DNA from: a virus
Taxonomy: Duplodnaviria; Heunggongvirae; Uroviricota; Caudoviricetes; Peduoviridae
Virus record (IMG/VR): IMGVR_UViG_2974619728_000001
Span: 1 to 31,834 of that record
Length of the DNA stretch: 31,834 nt
Strand: one strand, 5' to 3'
The notes under the pieces are model-generated. The model worked only from the letters and a program-made list of their open reading frames with translations. It ran no database searches and was not told where the DNA came from. The position numbers were made by a program, and so were the translations under genes. Below, piece after piece: positions 15,165-31,834 of the stretch (its first letter is position 1; every line of letters starts with the position of its first letter).

Positions 15165-15198
15165 GTTGTATGAACTCTGGTGTGAGCTTACATATCTA

Positions 15199-15240
15199 TG
15201 GCACAGAGTAAAGCCTAATCTGGCAGTCCGCTCTGTGCCA
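15199..15240. other. perfect 10-bp inverted repeat (TGGCACAGAG...CTCTGTGCCA) with 22-nt loop in the G-distal intergenic region
   Basis: Seen directly; no flanking T tract, so not a classic terminator. Confidence 0.6.
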
Positions 15241-15357
15241 TTACCGGACATACTGAGCAGAAGGCTAAAAAGGACGCTTTCAGGACATATAGCAAGGGAG
15301 CAAGGATGAAAGAATTAACCCAGTATATTTAATGTTTCAATCATGATAGTTTCTGAA

Positions 15358-15384
15358 TTAAAGGGGGCTATCCACCCCCTTTAA
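15358..15384. terminator. hairpin TTAAAGGGGG-CTATCCA-CCCCCTTTAA between convergent G and the minus-strand accessory genes (likely bidirectional terminator)
   Basis: 10-bp perfect stem and 7-nt loop, immediately 3' of the minus-strand ORF stop (15385-15387) and followed by T-rich sequence on the plus strand. Confidence 0.6.
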
Positions 15385-15663
15385 TTACTTGTTCCACTCA
15401 GTCAGAATTTGGTTACTAACTTCATCTGAGAGATTGTACCAATAAGCTGAGTTATTGGTTGCGTCTACAACAATAAGCTTATCATCACTATCCATGACCG
15501 CCCTCACAATTTTGGCTGCATCCTCGGCAGAGTAACTACAGTTAACATACCAGTTCGATTCAGTTGTTAAAGCCCAATTTCCTAAAGATTTAATTGCATC
15601 ATACACAGCCGCATAATCTTTCGTTTTAATGAGGTCGTAAGTAATAAATAAATTATTAGCCAT
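15385..15663 (-). CDS. AT-rich accessory ORF, hypothetical protein, 92 aa
   Basis: ORF with GGAG about 9 nt upstream of ATG on the minus strand; alternating predicted beta/alpha segments; no recognisable catalytic motif. Confidence 0.55.
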   Translation of the reverse strand: MANNLFITYDLIKTKDYAAVYDAIKSLGNWALTTESNWYVNCSYSAEDAAKIVRAVMDSDDKLIVVDATNNSAYWYNLSDEVSNQILTEWNK

Positions 15664-15680
15664 AAATCATCTCCCAAAGG

Positions 15681-15709
15681 ACAAAGAAAAAAGCGCCTAG
15701 AAAGGCGCT
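15681..15709 (-). terminator. small hairpin (AGCGCC-TAGAAA-GGCGCT) with following U-rich tract on the minus strand, between the two minus-strand accessory ORFs
   Basis: Seen directly; 6-bp stem, then T5CTTTGT in minus-strand sense. Confidence 0.4.
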
Positions 15710-15715
15710 CATATA

Positions 15716-15934
15716 TTAATGGTCTTTAAGCCATGCCTGTACTTTCTTAGCCGAATGACCTACAGCCTGTACGGCTTGAACAAGTTTGGCCTCGCTAACT
15801 CCAAACTTTTCAGCCCAATCACGTCTCTCGTAATCCTGTTTGATACTTATTAAATCATTGTCAGGGGTACCGATTTTGGTCTTATCATCAGCCATTTTAC
15901 TGATTCCTCGTGATACAGGCTTATACCTGCCCAT
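15716..15934 (-). CDS. small accessory protein resembling the DUF3606 family, 72 aa (or 59 aa if started at internal Met, 15895)
   Basis: C-terminal segment ...RRDWAEKFGVSEAKLVQAVQAVGHSAKKVQAWL fits the DUF3606 pattern as I recall it; two alternative ATGs each with a GGAG-like element. Confidence 0.5.
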   Translation of the reverse strand: MGRYKPVSRGISKMADDKTKIGTPDNDLISIKQDYERRDWAEKFGVSEAKLVQAVQAVGHSAKKVQAWLKDH

Positions 15935-16386
15935 TAGTTATATGGCTCCCGTGCTGCTTCGTAAACGTTCAATAATCAAACAATTGACACTGATCATAAA
16001 ACCAGTTGGAGGATTTGACTCTAGCTTGGATATATGATGATGCCACCCTCTTTATATTGTTGTCGGTAACTCACAGACATTGAACTCATGCTGGTGAGTG
16101 AAAGGCTACATAAACGCCCAACATTTAAACTGCCCTCAGCAGCGTTTGCGGAGCAATATACAGGCTTCGTATTCAATCCTTGCCCTACGAGAAACCCTAG
16201 CCGTTGCCTCGTTTTCAAGTGTCAGGAAGTTCTTTGTCAGACCTCATACAGTCTTGGGCTGGGTGAGGTGCATGGGGGAAGTAGAAGCCTTAACTGTTGA
16301 GGTAAATCGAACCATAAGTGTGCAATTTTTCAAGCCCGGCGCTATTTTAGTATTGAAAACAATTAGTACGCCCCCAAGGACAACTC

Positions 16387-17079
16387 ATGATCGAATTTAT
16401 CGCAGAGCATATAAACACAGTAAGTACACTTATCTCCGCTTTGGCAGCATTGCTAACAGCAGTTGCTACATTTTTCTTGTGGAGAGTAACAAGGCTATTA
16501 GCAGACGAGACAAAAAGGATGGTTGACGCATCAGTTCAACCTCATGTCGTTGTGACTCTTGAACCAAATTCTTGGGCTGCTTTTTATTTTGATATCAATA
16601 TTGCTAATACCGGAAATGCCCCAGCCTATGATATTGAAGTCGGATTTAATCCCCCACTGGTTAATGCAGAACATAGAAAAAATAAAGGTATACCATTTAG
16701 CAAGGTTAGCGTATTGAAAAACGGCCATTCCCTCAACAGCAGTCTTTGTAAGTATGACCAGATTAAAGATCAAGTTTATTCTGTTAGTATTAGCTGGTCT
16801 AAACAGCCGGGCTCAACTGAAAGAGAGCGGAATGAGTATTCTTATGATATGGCTTCTTTCGAGGGGGTTAGCTACTTAGGTGCAAGGAGTCCAATGACAC
16901 AGATAGCTGAGCAGATGAAAAAGATTAGAGAAGACTGGAGGCCGATTTCCCAGGGAAGCAAAAAAATTAGAACAGACAACTATAATTCAAGTGACAGAGC
17001 AGAGGAACAACGAGCACGTGAAGAGTGGTATCAGACCACTGTAAAGAAATGGGATAAAGAAAGGCAAAAAGATAACTAA
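16387..17079 (+). CDS. AT-rich accessory membrane-anchored protein, 230 aa, unknown function (Z/fun position)
   Basis: AAGGA 6 nt upstream of ATG; one N-terminal hydrophobic helix (about residues 11-33, TLISALAALLTAVATFFLW); strongly charged C-terminal tail. Confidence 0.65.
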   Translation: MIEFIAEHINTVSTLISALAALLTAVATFFLWRVTRLLADETKRMVDASVQPHVVVTLEPNSWAAFYFDINIANTGNAPAYDIEVGFNPPLVNAEHRKNKGIPFSKVSVLKNGHSLNSSLCKYDQIKDQVYSVSISWSKQPGSTERERNEYSYDMASFEGVSYLGARSPMTQIAEQMKKIREDWRPISQGSKKIRTDNYNSSDRAEEQRAREEWYQTTVKKWDKERQKDN

Positions 17080-17215
17080 TACAATTGACCTGCTCCCCAT
17101 AAATTAGCATACCACAATCTCAGGTTCCTCTTCGCTCAAAACAGGCAGTCAGATTTGATAGCGTTTTGGCTATGTAAATTGTCAGTCGGAAAATGAGTGT
17201 GTACAAATCAGGACA

Positions 17216-17245
17216 GGCGGGCAGATTGCCCGCCTTTTCTTTATC
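17216..17245 (+). terminator. rho-independent terminator after the accessory membrane-protein gene
   Basis: GGCGGGCA-GAT-TGCCCGCC perfect 8-bp stem followed by TTTTCTTTATC. Confidence 0.7.
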
Positions 17246-17338
17246 TGTTGTTTCATCCACTGACCAGCCAGGTCAAATAGCGTCTCATGTACTACCCAAC
17301 GGAAAATAGTTGCACCCATTAACCACGGAGTTAAACGG
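17246..17338 (+). promoter_or_regulatory. candidate late promoter region (P_F) for FI-FII-E-T-U-D
   Basis: Position between terminator and FI start, with GGAG RBS at 17327-17330; inferred from P2 organisation, motif not verified. Confidence 0.4.
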
Positions 17339-27724: not shown

Positions 27725-29996
27725 AGCCTCCGGGCGTTTTGTCCCTCCGTCAGCATTTGCTGCAGGCACCGGTAAGGCGTTTACCGGTGCTTATGCATGG
27801 AACGCGCCACGCGAGGCTGTCGGGCGCGAAAGACCCCTTACACGTGACGAGATGCGTCAGGTGCAAGGTGTTTTATCCACGATTAACCGCCTGCCTTACT
27901 TTTTGCGCTCGCTGTTTACTTCACGTTATGACTACATCCGGCGCAATAAAAGCCCGGTGCACGGGTTTTATTTCCTCACATCCACTTTTCAGCGTCGTTT
28001 ATGGCCGCGCATTGAGCGTGTGAATCAGCGCCATGAAATGAACACCGACGCGTCGTTACTGTTTCTGGCAGAGCGTGACCACTATGCGCGCCTGCCGGGA
28101 ATGAATGACAAGGAGCTGAAAAAGTTTGCCGCCTGTATCTCATCGCAGCTTTTCATGATGTATGAGGAACTCAGCGATGCCTGGGTGGATGCACATGGCG
28201 AAAAAGAATCGCTGTTTACGGATGAGGCGCAGGCTCACCTCTATGGTCATGTTGCTGGCGCTGCACGTGCTTTCAATATTTCCCCGCTTTACTGGAAAAA
28301 ATACCGTAAAGGACAGATGACCACGAGGCAGGCATATTCTGCCATTGCCCGCCTGTTTAACGATGAGTGGTGGACCCATCAGCTTAAAGGCCAGCGTATG
28401 CGCTGGCATGAGGCGTTACTGATTGCTGTCGGGGAGGTCAATAAAGACCGTTCTCCTTATGCCAGTAAACATGCCATTCGTGATGTGCGTGCGCGCCGCC
28501 AGGCAAATCTGGAATTTCTTAAATCGTGTGACCTTGAAAACAGGGAAACCGGCGAGCGTATCGACCTTATCAGTAAGGTGATGGGCAGTATTTCTAATCC
28601 TGAAATTCGCCGGATGGAGCTGATGAACACCATTGCCGGTATTGAGCGTTACGCCGCCGCAGAGGGTGATGTGGGGATGTTTATCACGCTGACCGCGCCG
28701 TCAAAGTATCACCCGACACGTCAGGTCGGAAAAGGCGAAAGTAAAACCGTCCAGCTAAATCACGGCTGGAACGATGAGGCATTTAATCCAAAGGATGCGC
28801 AGCGTTATCTCTGCCGTATCTGGAGCCTGATGCGTACGGCATTCAAGGATAATGATTTACAGGTCTACGGTTTGCGTGTCGTCGAGCCACACCACGACGG
28901 AACACCGCACTGGCATATGATGCTTTTTTGTAATCCACGCCAGCGTAACCAGATTATCGAAATCATGCGTCGCTATGCGCTCAAAGAGGATGGCGACGAA
29001 AGAGGAGCCGCGCGAAACCGTTTTCAGGCAAAACACCTTAACCGGGGTGGTGCTGCGGGGTATATCGCTAAATACATCTCAAAAAATATCGACGGCTATG
29101 CACTGGATGGTCAGCTCGATAACGATACCGGCAGGCCGCTTAAAGATACTGCCGCGGCTGTTACCGCATGGGCGTCAACGTGGCGCATCCCGCAATTTAA
29201 AACGGTTGGCCTGCCGACAATGGGGGCTTACCGTGAACTACGCAAATTGCCTCGCGGCGTCAGCATAGCTGATGAGTTTGACGAACGCGTCGAGGCTGCA
29301 CGCGCTGCCGCAGACAGTGGCGATTTTGCGCTGTATATCAGCGCGCAGGGTGGGGCAAATGTCCCGCGCGATTGTCAGACTGTCAGGGTCGCCCGTAGCC
29401 CGTCGGATGACGTTAACGAGTACGAGGAAGAGGTCGAGAGAGTGGTCGGCATTTACGCGCCGCATCTCGGCGCGCGTCATATTCATATCACCAGAACCAC
29501 GGACTGGCGCATTGTGCCGAAAGTGCCGGTCGTTGAGCCTTTGACTTTAAAAAGCGGCATCGCCGCGCCTCGGAGTCCTGTCAATAACTGTGGAAAACTC
29601 ACCGGTGGTGATACTTCGTTACCGGCTCCCACACCTTCTGAGCACGCCGCAGCAGTGCTTAATCTGGTTGATGACGGTGTTATCGAATGGAGTGACCCGG
29701 AGGTCGTGAGGGCGCTCAGGGGTGCATTAAAACACGGTCGGAGAACGCCAAGTCGTCAGCAAAGAAACGGAAGCCCGTTAAAACCACATGAAATTGCACC
29801 ATCGGCCAGACTGACCCGGTCGGAAAGAATGCAAATTACCCGTATCCGCGTTGACCTTGCTCAGAACGGTATCAGGCCGCAGCGATGGGAGCTTGAGGCG
29901 CTGGCGCGTGGCGCGACCGTAAATTATGATGGGAAAAAATTCACGTATCCGGTTGTTGATGAGTGGCGGTGGTATATAGTTGATGGTAGGCGGTGA
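27714..29996 (+). CDS. A: replication initiation endonuclease A (rolling-circle initiator), about 760 aa
   Basis: Start placed at MAVKASGRFVPP (ATG 27714); long ORF matching P2 gpA in size and N-terminal sequence. Confidence 0.9.
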   Translation: MAVKASGRFVPPSAFAAGTGKAFTGAYAWNAPREAVGRERPLTRDEMRQVQGVLSTINRLPYFLRSLFTSRYDYIRRNKSPVHGFYFLTSTFQRRLWPRIERVNQRHEMNTDASLLFLAERDHYARLPGMNDKELKKFAACISSQLFMMYEELSDAWVDAHGEKESLFTDEAQAHLYGHVAGAARAFNISPLYWKKYRKGQMTTRQAYSAIARLFNDEWWTHQLKGQRMRWHEALLIAVGEVNKDRSPYASKHAIRDVRARRQANLEFLKSCDLENRETGERIDLISKVMGSISNPEIRRMELMNTIAGIERYAAAEGDVGMFITLTAPSKYHPTRQVGKGESKTVQLNHGWNDEAFNPKDAQRYLCRIWSLMRTAFKDNDLQVYGLRVVEPHHDGTPHWHMMLFCNPRQRNQIIEIMRRYALKEDGDERGAARNRFQAKHLNRGGAAGYIAKYISKNIDGYALDGQLDNDTGRPLKDTAAAVTAWASTWRIPQFKTVGLPTMGAYRELRKLPRGVSIADEFDERVEAARAAADSGDFALYISAQGGANVPRDCQTVRVARSPSDDVNEYEEEVERVVGIYAPHLGARHIHITRTTDWRIVPKVPVVEPLTLKSGIAAPRSPVNNCGKLTGGDTSLPAPTPSEHAAAVLNLVDDGVIEWSDPEVVRALRGALKHGRRTPSRQQRNGSPLKPHEIAPSARLTRSERMQITRIRVDLAQNGIRPQRWELEALARGATVNYDGKKFTYPVVDEWRWYIVDGRR

Positions 29997-30172
29997 AAAG
30001 TTGAAGATGTGAACACTGTTATTGGTAGGTAAGTAGATTTGTATGTATAAAGTAGTTGTTGTAGATATGAACAATCAGGCGTAGAATCGCCAGCCGGCTA
30101 TGATGATTCCAGATGATAATGGTTATCATTAGCTGTTGATTTATGATGTTCTTAACCACTAGAGAGACTAAT

Positions 30173-30370
30173 ATGAGCAAAAAGGTTATCACGATACAAG
30201 TAAGAGGTGGGCACGCAGGTGCTAAGCCTGTTCGTCGTTCAAAACTTGAACAAAGTGTTAATCGTTCCCTGCGTGCTTCGTTTTCTCTGGAAGGTAATCA
30301 CATTACCAACACTTCATGGTCTAAAATGTCGCAGGCTGCACGTTTTCTGACCAGAGTAGCTGTTGCTTAA
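30173..30370 (+). CDS. small DinI-like protein (P2 orf91 position), about 65 aa
   Basis: MSKKVITIQVRGGHAGA...SFSLEGNHI resembles the DinI family (xxVTI...AGA...F..EGH); start chosen at internal Met; 3' end overlaps the convergent Fic gene by 4 nt. Confidence 0.55.
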   Translation: MSKKVITIQVRGGHAGAKPVRRSKLEQSVNRSLRASFSLEGNHITNTSWSKMSQAARFLTRVAVA

Positions 30371-31452
30371 AGCTCTTTGATTGCCCTTGAAATAAGGGCA
30401 ATCAGATTTCTGTTACTGTCGTGTATTGCGCGTCTTACAGCATAATGGTACGCACGTTTATTTTGCACATCTCCATCTAGCTTTTCCATATCAAATTCAT
30501 AACCCATAGTAGTTGCAACAATCTGAAGAAATAATCGTATTGAACGACCATTACCATCTTGAAAGGGGTGGATCCATGCGATTTCTGCATGGAGAGTAGC
30601 TAGTTTATGAACTAACTCTGCTTTAGAATTTATTTTGCTAAGTTCTTTTTTTGTGCAACCTCTAAGACAGGCTTTTAATGATTTTTTGACTTCATTATGT
30701 TCCATTGTTGGTCGCTCTTTATCTCCAACAACAACGGGATGGTTTCTGTATTCACCTGCCCAATCATAAATATGGCCAAAAAGAGCTTTATGGCATTCTA
30801 AGATCGTCTTTTCATTAATTGTTTTATTTTTGTCGGAGACATAATTTATTATGAGCTGCGTACTTTTGATATATGAAATAACCATTTCGGCAAATTCAAC
30901 TTGGTATTGGTATTTTGCAAATACTAGATTTTTTGTTGCCATGTATTCATATCTTTCATTTTTTCCGTCACGTAAAAGAAAAATGTTGTCTTTTTGGTGC
31001 TTTACTTTGATTACATGATTGCGTTGAAATGGAAAGTTTTTGTCGTGAGGCAATATGTGAAAATAAGTTTCTTTTTTTAGCTTGTCTACACCAACAATTG
31101 AACCAAAAAGAAAAAGGGCTGCTGTTGTATTAAATAAAACACATACGGAGTCGCCAAGTTGTATCTCTTCGCGACTTAGATCGCATGTTTTTTTCTTATA
31201 ATTAAATAAATGGGCGATAGATGGTATGCTGTGATGATTGCGCAATGAACCTGAGCCACATATGACTTCTTTTGTCCTGCTATTCCAGTAATAATTAATG
31301 CTTCTCTTATTCTCTTGTGTTCTTTTTATATGAACCAACTTGAAGCTAAGTAGACTTAAAGAGAATTCACCATTCTTTTTGACTATATTAACTTTTTGGT
31401 GTTTCATTTTGTTTTTTGTTAGTGTTATTGAAAAATGTTTTGAAGGTATCAT
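30367..31452 (-). CDS. AT-rich accessory Fic/Doc-domain protein, 361 aa, at the tin/old position
   Basis: Canonical Fic motif HPFQDGNGRSIR (residues 295-306, about 30535-30570) preceded by ...ILECHKALFGHIYDWAGEYR; ~200-aa N-terminal region with no motif I recognise. Confidence 0.75.
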   Translation of the reverse strand: MIPSKHFSITLTKNKMKHQKVNIVKKNGEFSLSLLSFKLVHIKRTQENKRSINYYWNSRTKEVICGSGSLRNHHSIPSIAHLFNYKKKTCDLSREEIQLGDSVCVLFNTTAALFLFGSIVGVDKLKKETYFHILPHDKNFPFQRNHVIKVKHQKDNIFLLRDGKNERYEYMATKNLVFAKYQYQVEFAEMVISYIKSTQLIINYVSDKNKTINEKTILECHKALFGHIYDWAGEYRNHPVVVGDKERPTMEHNEVKKSLKACLRGCTKKELSKINSKAELVHKLATLHAEIAWIHPFQDGNGRSIRLFLQIVATTMGYEFDMEKLDGDVQNKRAYHYAVRRAIHDSNRNLIALISRAIKEL

Positions 31453-31834
31453 GTTTTGAGTAAGAATGCATGGTTATTATAACATGTTGGAGTTTTATCG
31501 CTAAAAAATGGATGTAGTGAGAAGTTTGGTGCTCATGACATTTACACTTAAGATGAACAGGAGGTGCTGTTTCGGTAAGATTATCTTTGTCCCATCACAT
31601 AGCACTGCTCAATTTATCACTCATATCTTCATTTCCTTCCAGTGACAACACAAAGCTTTAAAGTCACCTTCTGTGATGCTGCTTTATGTCATTTCATAAG
31701 ATCAGAGTTATGCATGCATTAGGTGCATAGCTTTGCATGTATCAGAATTATACGTTTTCGGCGTCCGACATCACAGCTAGTTTGGATTCAGAGATGTCAT
31801 GCAACCGCATTAAAACCTCCACATGAAGCGGGCG

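What the first reader, a model, noticed from the sequence alone, without database searches (positions are those of the whole stretch)
30367..31452. Fic/Doc-domain protein as sole cargo at the tin/old-equivalent hotspot
Between the conserved A/orf91 genes and the right genome end, where P2 carries tin and old, this phage has a single AT-rich minus-strand gene. Its C-terminal half is a Fic domain with the complete catalytic motif HPFQDGNGRSIR (competent for AMPylation or a related NMP/phosphocholine transfer), and its ~200-residue N-terminal region matches nothing I recognise. I found no internal [S/T]xxxE[G/N] inhibitory helix, so it may be regulated in trans or constitutively active. Fic/Doc enzymes act as toxins, and this locus is a known defence hotspot, so an abortive-infection or superinfection-exclusion role is a concrete hypothesis. 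I cannot tell from sequence alone whether this architecture has already been characterised.
Basis: partly seen in the sequence, partly recalled or inferred. Interest (0 to 1): 0.8.

Follow-up and report, generated by a model that had tools for sequence, protein, structure and literature searches.

The report
Fic toxin with hidden convergent antitoxin
The AT-rich Fic gene in this P2-like phage's old/tin hotspot is real, but it comes with an overlooked 65-residue gene on the opposite strand that carries the known Fic-inhibiting motif, so the cargo is a two-gene toxin-antitoxin-like cassette of unusual layout whose role (phage defence or prophage addiction) is untested.

Summary
The ORF at 30367-31452(-) exists. 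It encodes a canonical Fic domain (PF02661, E 7e-17) with the motif HPFQDGNGRSIR and no internal inhibitory motif. It is AT-rich (30-38% GC against about 50-55% in the backbone). It is not the sole cargo. A 65-aa + strand ORF (30173-30370) converges on it and overlaps its stop by 4 nt. This ORF carries S36-F-S-L-E40-G41, which fits the (S/T)xxxE(G/N) inhibitory-helix motif that VbhA and FicA antitoxins supply in trans. The partner is under purifying selection (dN/dS about 0.1-0.2). It accompanies every Fic homologue examined (13/13 loci, down to 30% identity) in prophages, a plasmid and chromosomes. It also has its own covarying 3' hairpin, embedded in the Fic coding end. The closest sequence and fold relatives of the Fic domain are the class I toxins VbhT, EcFicT and Fic-1. 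The N-terminal ~155 residues form an all-beta domain containing an SH3-like barrel. That domain is found only fused to Fic, in about ten families among 1.84 billion proteins. My verdict is a new variant of class I FicTA with a convergent antitoxin gene and a novel N-terminal domain. Rousset et al. 2022 catalogued the pair without describing it. A defence role is plausible but unproven, and an addiction role is equally open.

The parts
30367..31452 (-). Fic-domain protein ORF. It is 361 aa from the first ATG, and the probable true start is Met16 at 31407, giving 346 aa.
   Evidence: ORF. Pfam Fic E 7e-17. RefSeq start at Met16. Homologues start at MKHxK. AF2 pLDDT 85, pTM 0.80, residues 1-15 disordered.
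30943..31407 (-). N-terminal all-beta domain (residues 16-170). The second half is an SH3-like barrel. No known family matches.
30370..30939 (-). Fic (FIDO) catalytic domain, residues 172-361, most like class I toxins.
   Evidence: phmmer against PDB: VbhT E 1.7e-12, EcFicT 2.5e-9. Foldseek top hits are VbhT, Bep Fic domains, EcFicT and Fic-1-AntF, E 1e-11 to 1e-9.
30535..30570 (-). Active-site motif HPFQDGNGRSIR (residues 295-306).
   Evidence: Read from the translation. H, P, F, D, G, N, G, R, I and R are invariant in 19 homologues.
30173..30370 (+). Convergent 65-aa ORF (WP_016236400), the proposed class I-type Fic antitoxin. Its 3' end overlaps the Fic stop by 4 nt.
   Evidence: Annotated as hypothetical in RefSeq and phage records. 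15 homologue clusters with the core VNRSLRASFSLEG invariant. dN/dS 0.09-0.18 where dS is 0.66-0.99. Present and convergent in 13/13 loci.
30278..30295 (+). S36-F-S-L-E40-G41, a match to the (S/T)xxxE(G/N) inhibitory-helix motif.
   Evidence: S, L, E and G are invariant in all partners, including those beside 30-35% identical Fic proteins. hhalign aligns it to VbhA ASQRLEG and YhfG ASRRLEG. Chance per 65 aa is 0.027 for the loose motif and 0.002 for S..LEG.
30376..30406 (+). Terminator-like hairpin just 3' of the small-ORF stop. It is embedded in the codons for the Fic C-terminus (LIALISRAI).
   Evidence: 14-bp stem followed by a T-rich tail. Conserved in 7 loci, with 8 of 13 pairs changed on both sides, 92% of cells paired and 0/500 shuffles reaching this.
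30059..30087 (+). Promoter-like element TTGTAG-17 nt-TAGAAT upstream of the small ORF.
   Evidence: The hexamers are conserved while the spacer varies in L011, L012, L014 and (more weakly) L013. The consensus scan tool did not call it. This is inference only.
30113..30129 (.). Inverted repeat ATGATAA-TGG-TTATCAT between that promoter-like element and the small ORF. It is a candidate operator.
   Evidence: TGATA-N5-TATCA is conserved in L011, L012 and L014. Its function is not tested.
31476..31484 (-). Extended -10-like TGTTATAAT upstream of the Fic gene, a candidate promoter for leftward transcription (P2 old-tin is transcribed in the same direction).
   Evidence: Read. TGTTATATT and TGCTATATT lie at the equivalent place in L011 and L012. 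The P2 old-tin mRNA also starts near cos and runs leftward. This is inference only.

Best explanation
The locus is a mobile two-gene, class I-type Fic toxin-antitoxin-like cassette carried as a moron in the old/tin hotspot of a P2-like phage.

Gene 1 (minus strand) encodes a 346/361-aa protein. It has a novel all-beta N-terminal domain followed by a catalytically intact Fic AMP-transferase domain that lacks any built-in inhibitory helix. Gene 2 (plus strand, convergent, 65 aa) encodes a small protein whose invariant S36-x-x-L-E40-G41 segment is proposed to act as the inhibitory helix in trans. By analogy with Glu24 of VbhA and Glu28 of FicA, Glu40 would occupy the ATP gamma-phosphate site and hold the enzyme inactive.

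The two genes are separate convergent transcription units. The small gene ends in a conserved hairpin that lies inside the 3' coding end of the toxin gene. When inhibition is lost, the Fic domain would AMPylate an essential host protein and arrest growth. Loss of inhibition could come from loss or titration of the antitoxin, or from a signal sensed by the N-terminal domain. The closest relatives (VbhT, FicT, Fic-1) modify GyrB/ParE, so that is the leading target guess. Growth arrest would give either abortive infection or superinfection exclusion, or post-segregational stabilisation of the element.

Shown here: gene anatomy, motifs, fold, co-inheritance, purifying selection and the RNA hairpin. 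Inferred: the physical complex, inhibition by Glu40, AMPylation, the target, the trigger and the biological role.
For: - Fic domain and motif.
- No internal inhibitory motif in this protein, and none conserved among homologues (one stray match).
- Nearest sequence and fold relatives are class I toxins whose antitoxins were co-crystallised (VbhT-VbhA, EcFicT-FicA, Bep-BiaA, Fic-1-AntF).
- The small ORF carries the motif defined for class I antitoxins (definition in PMC3667792). hhalign places it exactly on the VbhA and YhfG motifs, P 0.059, 0.0082 and 0.0075.
- S..LEG occurs once in the whole six-frame translation of the window, in this ORF.
- The partner is conserved, convergent and motif-bearing in 13/13 loci, covering P2-like prophages of E. 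coli, Salmonella, Enterobacter, Serratia and Dickeya, a Photorhabdus chromosome, a Providencia Rep3 plasmid and metagenome contigs.
- dN/dS is 0.09-0.18.
- SD-like sequences precede the start in every locus.
- The 3' hairpin covaries.
- Low GC marks the cassette as acquired cargo.
- The position equals P2 tin/old, which are transcribed leftward from near cos.
- The P2 hotspot is rich in defence systems, and this exact pair (WP_165283150 + WP_016236400) is listed there (PMC9122126).
Against: - The small protein is not detectably homologous to the YhfG/FicA or VbhA families by HMM. Pfam, NCBIfam, PADLOC and a PDB profile search all gave nothing. Profile-profile support is weak and limited to 15-24 columns.
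- Class I antitoxins are described as encoded immediately upstream in the same direction. Here the gene is downstream and convergent.
- Both promoters rest on consensus-like matches that the scan tool did not call.
- Nothing here shows toxicity, AMPylation, a target or phage resistance.
- PDC-S04-type Fic candidates gave no defence in one native-host study.
Confidence: 0.65

Rival explanations
1. A lone Fic enzyme is the only cargo. It is constitutively active or regulated by an unknown host or phage factor, and it acts as a single-gene defence like SoFic.
For: The Fic domain hits PADLOC PDC-S04 and, more weakly, SoFic. Both are single-gene entries. There is no internal inhibitory helix.
Against: A conserved, selected, motif-bearing partner gene is always adjacent. 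NCBIfam SoFic scores 15 bits against a cut-off of 550. SoFic is class II, with an N-terminal inhibitory helix and a C-terminal domain, which is a different architecture.
Confidence: 0.07
2. The two-gene anatomy is the same, but the selected role is addiction (post-segregational killing) that stabilises the prophage or plasmid, as Phd-Doc does for P1. Phage defence is not the selected role.
For: The cassette sits on a 4.7-kb Rep3 plasmid in Providencia. About a quarter of P2-like hotspots carry plasmid partition genes (PMC9122126). Class I FicTA modules are classical TA systems. A PDC-S04 candidate showed no defence in one test.
Against: The hotspot is enriched for defence genes and holds old/tin in P2. 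One homologue lies next to an N6_Mtase/AAA_15 gene. Integrated P2 prophages gain little from addiction. The two roles are not mutually exclusive.
Confidence: 0.3
3. The small gene acts mainly as RNA, through convergent transcription or antisense pairing with the 3' end of the Fic mRNA (type I-like control). The peptide motif is incidental.
For: The layout is convergent and overlapping, with a conserved hairpin inside the toxin's 3' end. In the held literature, convergent TA layouts are discussed for type I systems.
Against: dN/dS of 0.1-0.2 shows selection on the protein. S, L, E and G are invariant across partners that are otherwise only 25% identical. The overlap ranges from 41 nt to gaps of 8-15 nt between the genes, so the coding overlap is not conserved. 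There is no Rfam match. A dual role is not excluded.
Confidence: 0.08
4. The complex is a regulatory AMPylase/deAMPylase pair that tunes a host protein such as gyrase in the lysogen. This would be lysogenic conversion of physiology, not a kill switch.
For: The structural neighbour Fic-1-AntF is reported to work as a deAMPylase complex regulating gyrase (PDB 8wt0; PMC13327609). SoFic is reported to both AMPylate and deAMPylate EF-Tu.
Against: There are no data for this family. The cassette's mobility across phage, plasmid and chromosome is more typical of selfish or defence modules.
Confidence: 0.1

Closest known systems
VbhT-VbhA (Bartonella schoenbuchensis), the class I Fic toxin-antitoxin pair (PDB 3SHG, 3ZC7)
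   Same: It is the best sequence and fold match to the Fic domain. Both have the canonical HxFx(D/E)GNGRxxR motif and no internal inhibitory helix. Both have a small partner with A-S-x-x-L-E-G (VbhA ASQRLEG, here ASFSLEG).
   Different: Fic-domain identity is only about 23%. VbhT has a C-terminal BID domain for type IV secretion, whereas this protein has an N-terminal all-beta domain. vbhA lies upstream in the same operon, whereas this partner lies downstream and convergent. Outside the motif the partner cannot be aligned with VbhA.
E. coli FicT-FicA (Fic-YhfG; PDB 5JFF) and Pseudomonas Fic-1-AntF (PDB 8WT0)
   Same: Both are class I FicTA modules. The toxins AMPylate GyrB/ParE. They are close fold neighbours. 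The YhfG motif region aligns with the small ORF (P 0.0075).
   Different: Those toxins are about 200 aa with no extra domain. The Pfam YhfG model (PF10832) does not detect the small ORF. NCBIfam Fic (PRK10347) scores 52 bits against a cut-off of 181. Gene order and orientation differ.
SoFic / EcSofic (+AS1) anti-phage system
   Same: It is a Fic-domain protein shown to protect against phage. A small downstream antitoxic protein (AS1, 47 aa) has been reported (PMC12249575).
   Different: SoFic is class II. It has an internal N-terminal inhibitory helix, the catalytic His at about residue 194 and a C-terminal domain. NCBIfam SoFic scores 15 bits against a cut-off of 550, so this protein is not a member.
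PADLOC candidate PDC-S04
   Same: It is the best PADLOC hit, E 2.6e-33 over residues 172-359.
   Different: The models are about 205 aa and cover only the Fic domain. The candidate is unvalidated, and one native-host test found no defence. The model has no partner gene or N-terminal domain.
P1 Phd-Doc
   Same: It is a prophage-borne TA pair with a Fic-fold toxin.
   Different: Doc is a kinase with a variant motif. TIGR01550 scores 16 bits against a cut-off of 38.65. Phd lies upstream, is co-transcribed and is unrelated.
P2 old / tin
   Same: They occupy the same genomic slot between gene A and cos. They run in the same leftward direction and are AT-rich accessory cargo.
   Different: There is no sequence similarity. 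P2 matches only the end of gene A.

Membership tests
Fic/FIDO AMP-transferases | Pfam PF02661 above the gathering score | tested here: met
   62.5 bits against a cut-off of 24, E 7e-17
Fic/FIDO AMP-transferases | Signature HxFx(D/E)GNGRxxR | tested here: met
   HPFQDGNGRSIR at residues 295-306, invariant in the family
Fic/FIDO AMP-transferases | Fic fold | tested here: met
   AF2 pLDDT 85. Foldseek matches VbhT at E 1.8e-11, TM (target-normalised) 0.77. This is a predicted structure only.
Fic/FIDO AMP-transferases | AMP transfer to a protein hydroxyl | not testable with these tools
   Needs a biochemical assay.
Class I Fic (FicTA / VbhTA) | No inhibitory helix inside the Fic protein | tested here: met
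   No [ST]xxxE[GN] in this protein. Of 36 homologues, 35 have none and one has a single non-conserved N-terminal match.
Class I Fic (FicTA / VbhTA) | Adjacent small protein carrying (S/T)xxxE(G/N) | tested here: met
   SFSLEG at residues 36-41 of the 65-aa ORF. It is conserved in 13/13 loci.
Class I Fic (FicTA / VbhTA) | Antitoxin encoded immediately upstream and co-directional (operon) | tested here: not met
   The partner is downstream and convergent in every locus.
Class I Fic (FicTA / VbhTA) | Antitoxin homologous to the FicA/YhfG or VbhA families | tested here: inconclusive
   No HMM hit. hhalign P 0.0075-0.059, confined to the motif region.
Class I Fic (FicTA / VbhTA) | Antitoxin binds the toxin and neutralises it, and an E-to-G change relieves inhibition | not testable with these tools
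   No multimer prediction was available. This needs experiment.
Class I Fic (FicTA / VbhTA) | Target is GyrB/ParE | not testable with these tools
   Inferred only from the nearest relatives.
SoFic defence system (class II Fic) | NCBIfam SoFic equivalog score, N-terminal internal inhibitory helix and C-terminal domain | tested here: not met
   15 bits against a cut-off of 550. No internal motif. The architecture is reversed.
Doc (Phd-Doc) | TIGR01550 above its cut-off | tested here: not met
   16 bits against a cut-off of 38.65.
Validated anti-phage defence system | Match to a model of an experimentally validated system | tested here: not met
   The best hits are PDC-S04 candidates only. The small ORF has no PADLOC hit. 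The pair is listed in PMC9122126 Table S5A but is not discussed in the main text.

The most novel reading that the evidence does not exclude
The cassette is a new kind of Fic-based abortive-infection module with two layers of control. In the first layer, a protein antitoxin of a previously unrecognised family supplies the inhibitory Glu in trans. In the second layer, the convergent layout, with the antitoxin mRNA ending in a hairpin inside the toxin's coding end, couples the two genes by transcriptional or antisense interference. The novel SH3-like N-terminal domain would be the sensor that detects an infecting phage and releases the toxin.
Probability: 0.15. Interest if true: 0.7.

Novelty: new variant of a known kind. 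Interest (0 to 1): 0.5.

Why it matters
Fic enzymes are known as toxins of TA modules, and class II SoFic is known as an anti-phage protein. No class I FicTA has been tied to a phage defence hotspot, and how any Fic defence senses infection is unknown.

This family offers a compact two-gene test case of about 1.3 kb carried by a well-studied phage type. It has a clear catalytic residue (His295) and a clear inhibitory residue (Glu40 of the partner) to mutate. It also has a rare dedicated N-terminal domain that could be the sensor or the target adaptor.

The work also shows that annotation pipelines and defence finders miss the antitoxin. It is unannotated in Salmonella phage FSL SP-004 and has no family in Pfam, NCBIfam or PADLOC. 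As a result, 'orphan, uninhibited' Fic genes in phages may often be misread.

The convergent layout of a protein antitoxin is unusual for type II-like TA modules and may be of interest for TA regulation.

Tried and rejected
- I ran Pfam, NCBIfam and PADLOC on the small ORF, and a profile of nine partners against PDB sequences and Pfam. There were no meaningful hits, so homology to FicA/VbhA could not be established by HMM.
- I considered whether the small ORF is the P2 Orf91 equivalent. I rejected this because BLASTP found no alignment.
- I considered SoFic/AS1 as the same system. I rejected this on architecture and score.
- I considered Doc. I rejected it because the score is below the cut-off.
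- A full-library HMMER search with the N-terminal domain found it only in this Fic family.
- Rfam found nothing in 29900-31834.
- The consensus promoter scan found nothing in either intergenic region. The promoter-like elements I report come from cross-locus conservation only.
- Literature searches found no paper characterising this architecture.
Full report
**1. The observation**

The window is a complete P2-like (Peduovirus) genome. It is 99.7% identical over the queried right end to Yersinia phage vB_YpM_22 and its relatives. It is 99.3% identical to Salmonella phage STYP1. It is 100% identical to prophages in several E. coli chromosomes. Only 11-12 of 5,426 complete E. coli genomes carry this right-end cargo.

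The ORF at 30367..31452(-) exists and is 361 aa. It has a Pfam Fic domain at residues 212-311 (E 7e-17) and the complete signature HPFQDGNGRSIR at residues 295-306. It has no internal [ST]xxxE[GN] motif. Among its homologues only one stray, non-conserved match turns up.

GC falls to 0.30-0.38 across the gene, against 0.50-0.60 in gene A. This marks the gene as acquired cargo.

RefSeq and nearly all homologues start at Met16, giving 346 aa. Residues 1-15 are disordered in the model.

**2.

Between gene A (which ends at 29996) and the Fic gene lies a + strand ORF at 30173..30370. It is 65 aa and is annotated as a hypothetical protein, WP_016236400. It converges on the Fic gene, and its stop overlaps the Fic stop by 4 nt. 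It is not the P2 Orf91 equivalent.

Its sequence contains ...NRSLRASFSLEGNHIT.... This fits the (S/T)xxxE(G/N) motif of the Fic inhibitory helix. Class I Fic proteins receive that helix from a separate antitoxin (definition in PMC3667792). I confirmed the VbhA and YhfG/FicA sequences against PDB chains 3zc7_B and 5jff_B. Their motifs read NALASQRLEG and NFQASRRLEG. hhalign places the small ORF's motif exactly on them, but only over 15-24 columns and with weak statistics (P 0.059, 0.0082 and 0.0075).

HMM searches do not recognise the small protein. Pfam (including the YhfG model), NCBIfam, PADLOC and the PDB profile search all gave nothing. It therefore shares the functional motif with the known antitoxin families, but I could not show that it belongs to them.

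**3. Is the small ORF real, and is it tied to the Fic gene?**

Four independent lines say yes.

(a) The family has 15 clusters at 90% identity, all from Enterobacterales. The core VNRSLRASFSLEG is invariant.

(b) Pairwise dN/dS is 0.09-0.18 for pairs whose dS is unsaturated (0.66-0.99). This indicates purifying selection on the protein.

(c) Every Fic homologue whose DNA I examined has a convergent ORF of 63-86 aa at its 3' end carrying S-[F/I]-x-L-E-G. That is 13 of 13 loci, with Fic identity running from 100% down to 30%. The contexts are:
- P2-like prophage hotspots in E. coli, Salmonella phage FSL SP-004 (where the ORF is unannotated), Enterobacter, Serratia, Dickeya and one further genome;
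- a Photorhabdus chromosome, between a Bax1-I gene and an ABC transporter;
- a 4.7-kb Rep3 plasmid of Providencia;
- metagenome contigs, one of them next to an N6_Mtase/AAA_15 gene.

Across the nine most diverse partners only R11, L25, S36, L39, E40 and G41 are invariant.

(d) By chance, the loose motif is expected 0.027 times per 65 aa in this window's six-frame ORFs. S..LEG is expected 0.002 times, and its only occurrence in the window is this one.

**4. Transcript anatomy**

A 14-bp hairpin with a T-rich tail lies directly after the small-ORF stop at 30376-30406(+). It sits inside the codons for the Fic C-terminus (LIALISRAI).

The hairpin is conserved in seven loci. In those, 8 of 13 base pairs change on both sides and 92% of cells are paired. 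None of 500 shuffles reaches these values, and slid controls collapse. Several G·U pairs and the T-run mildly favour the + strand RNA, which is the small gene's mRNA.

Upstream of the small ORF there is a promoter-like TTGTAG-17-TAGAAT at 30059-30087. Its hexamers are conserved while the spacer varies across P2-like loci. An inverted repeat, ATGATAA-TGG-TTATCAT at 30113-30129, is conserved as TGATA-N5-TATCA and is a candidate operator.

Upstream of the Fic gene there is an extended -10-like TGTTATAAT at 31484-31476, with similar elements in relatives. The consensus scan did not call any of these elements, so I treat them as inference.

The leftward orientation of the Fic gene from near cos matches that of the P2 old-tin mRNA. 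Rfam finds no known RNA in the region.

**5. The Fic protein**

The full-length AF2 model is confident (pLDDT 85, pTM 0.80). Foldseek against the PDB returns class I toxins first: VbhT (E 1.8e-11), Bartonella Bep Fic domains, EcFicT and Fic-1-AntF. The sequence search gives the same ranking. VbhT, FicT and Fic-1 AMPylate GyrB/ParE. That makes GyrB/ParE the leading target guess, but it is only an analogy at about 21-24% identity.

PADLOC's best hits are PDC-S04 candidate models, which cover only the Fic domain (E 2.6e-33). SoFic is a weak partial hit. NCBIfam rules out membership of SoFic (15 bits against 550), E. coli Fic (52 against 181), VbhT (47 against 800) and Doc (16 against 38.65).

**6. 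The N-terminal domain**

Residues 16-170 are all-beta. A full HMMER scan of 1.84 billion representative proteins finds only 10 matches. Every match long enough to tell also carries a Fic domain (5 of the 8 scanned).

The domain is therefore a rare, family-specific module containing an SH3-like barrel. Whether it is a sensor, a target adaptor or an oligomerisation module cannot be decided here.

**7. Most likely mechanism**

The cassette works like a class I FicTA module. The small protein binds the Fic domain, and Glu40 blocks productive ATP binding. When that inhibition is lost, the enzyme AMPylates an essential host protein and stops growth.

Shown here: the parts, motifs, fold, linkage, selection and RNA hairpin. 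Inferred: complex formation, inhibition, chemistry, target, trigger and role.

For the role, defence and addiction are both live. Defence is favoured by the hotspot position and by the old/tin precedent. Rousset et al. list this exact pair in Table S5A but do not discuss it in the main text. Addiction is favoured by the presence of the cassette on a small plasmid and by the classical behaviour of TA modules. The only reported test of a PDC-S04 candidate found no defence.

**8. Comparison and novelty**

The cassette is the same kind of thing as VbhTA or FicTA. It differs in three ways:
- The antitoxin gene is downstream and convergent, with its terminator inside the toxin gene. The held literature discusses convergent layouts for type I TA systems.
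- The antitoxin belongs to no recognised family.
- The toxin carries a novel N-terminal domain.

It is not SoFic/AS1, which is class II. No paper in the held library characterises this architecture. I rate it a new variant of a known kind, with moderate interest.

Noticed in passing
window 15165-17338: This is the second P2 variable region, at the Z/fun position between G and FI. It holds three unassigned ORFs. 15385-15663(-) is 92 aa with no family. 15716-15934(-) is 72 aa and matches DUF3606 (E 4e-18). 16387-17079(+) is 230 aa with a hydrophobic N-terminus and has no Pfam or PADLOC hit.
   Followed up: partly
L011 2619-2816 (Salmonella phage FSL SP-004, NC_021774): The 65-aa S-x-x-L-E-G partner ORF is present but not annotated in this RefSeq phage record. 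It is also uncalled in L006 and L009.
   Followed up: yes
window 30113-30129: The inverted repeat ATGATAA-TGG-TTATCAT lies between the promoter-like element and the small ORF. It is conserved as TGATA-N5-TATCA in three related prophages. It may be an operator. The N-terminus of the small protein (ITIQVRG, with Arg11 invariant) could be a DNA-binding beta-strand, but this was not tested.
   Followed up: partly
L005 (Providencia Rep3 plasmid), about 60-115 nt upstream of the small ORF: There is a near-perfect 27-nt-arm palindrome, GGTAGTGAAGCTTAAGGGACTGACTGG-ATTG-CCAGTCAGTCCCTTAAGCTTCACTACC. It may be a bidirectional terminator that ends the Fic transcript after it has read antisense through the small gene.
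   Followed up: no
window 31407-31484: The extended -10-like element lies 77 nt upstream of Met16 here but only 38 nt upstream in relatives (L011, L012). This phage therefore has about 39 extra nt, which create the upstream in-frame ATG (Met1) used in some annotations.
   Followed up: partly
Rousset et al. 2022 Table S1A (PMC9122126 supplement file 2): P4-like satellite hotspots also list a single 'Fic' gene (WP_073464939). I did not check whether it has a hidden partner ORF.
   Followed up: no
L007 1844-5153: In one metagenome contig the cassette sits beside an 846-aa N6_Mtase/SMC/AAA_15 protein and a 261-aa ORF. This may be a defence-island context.
   Followed up: no
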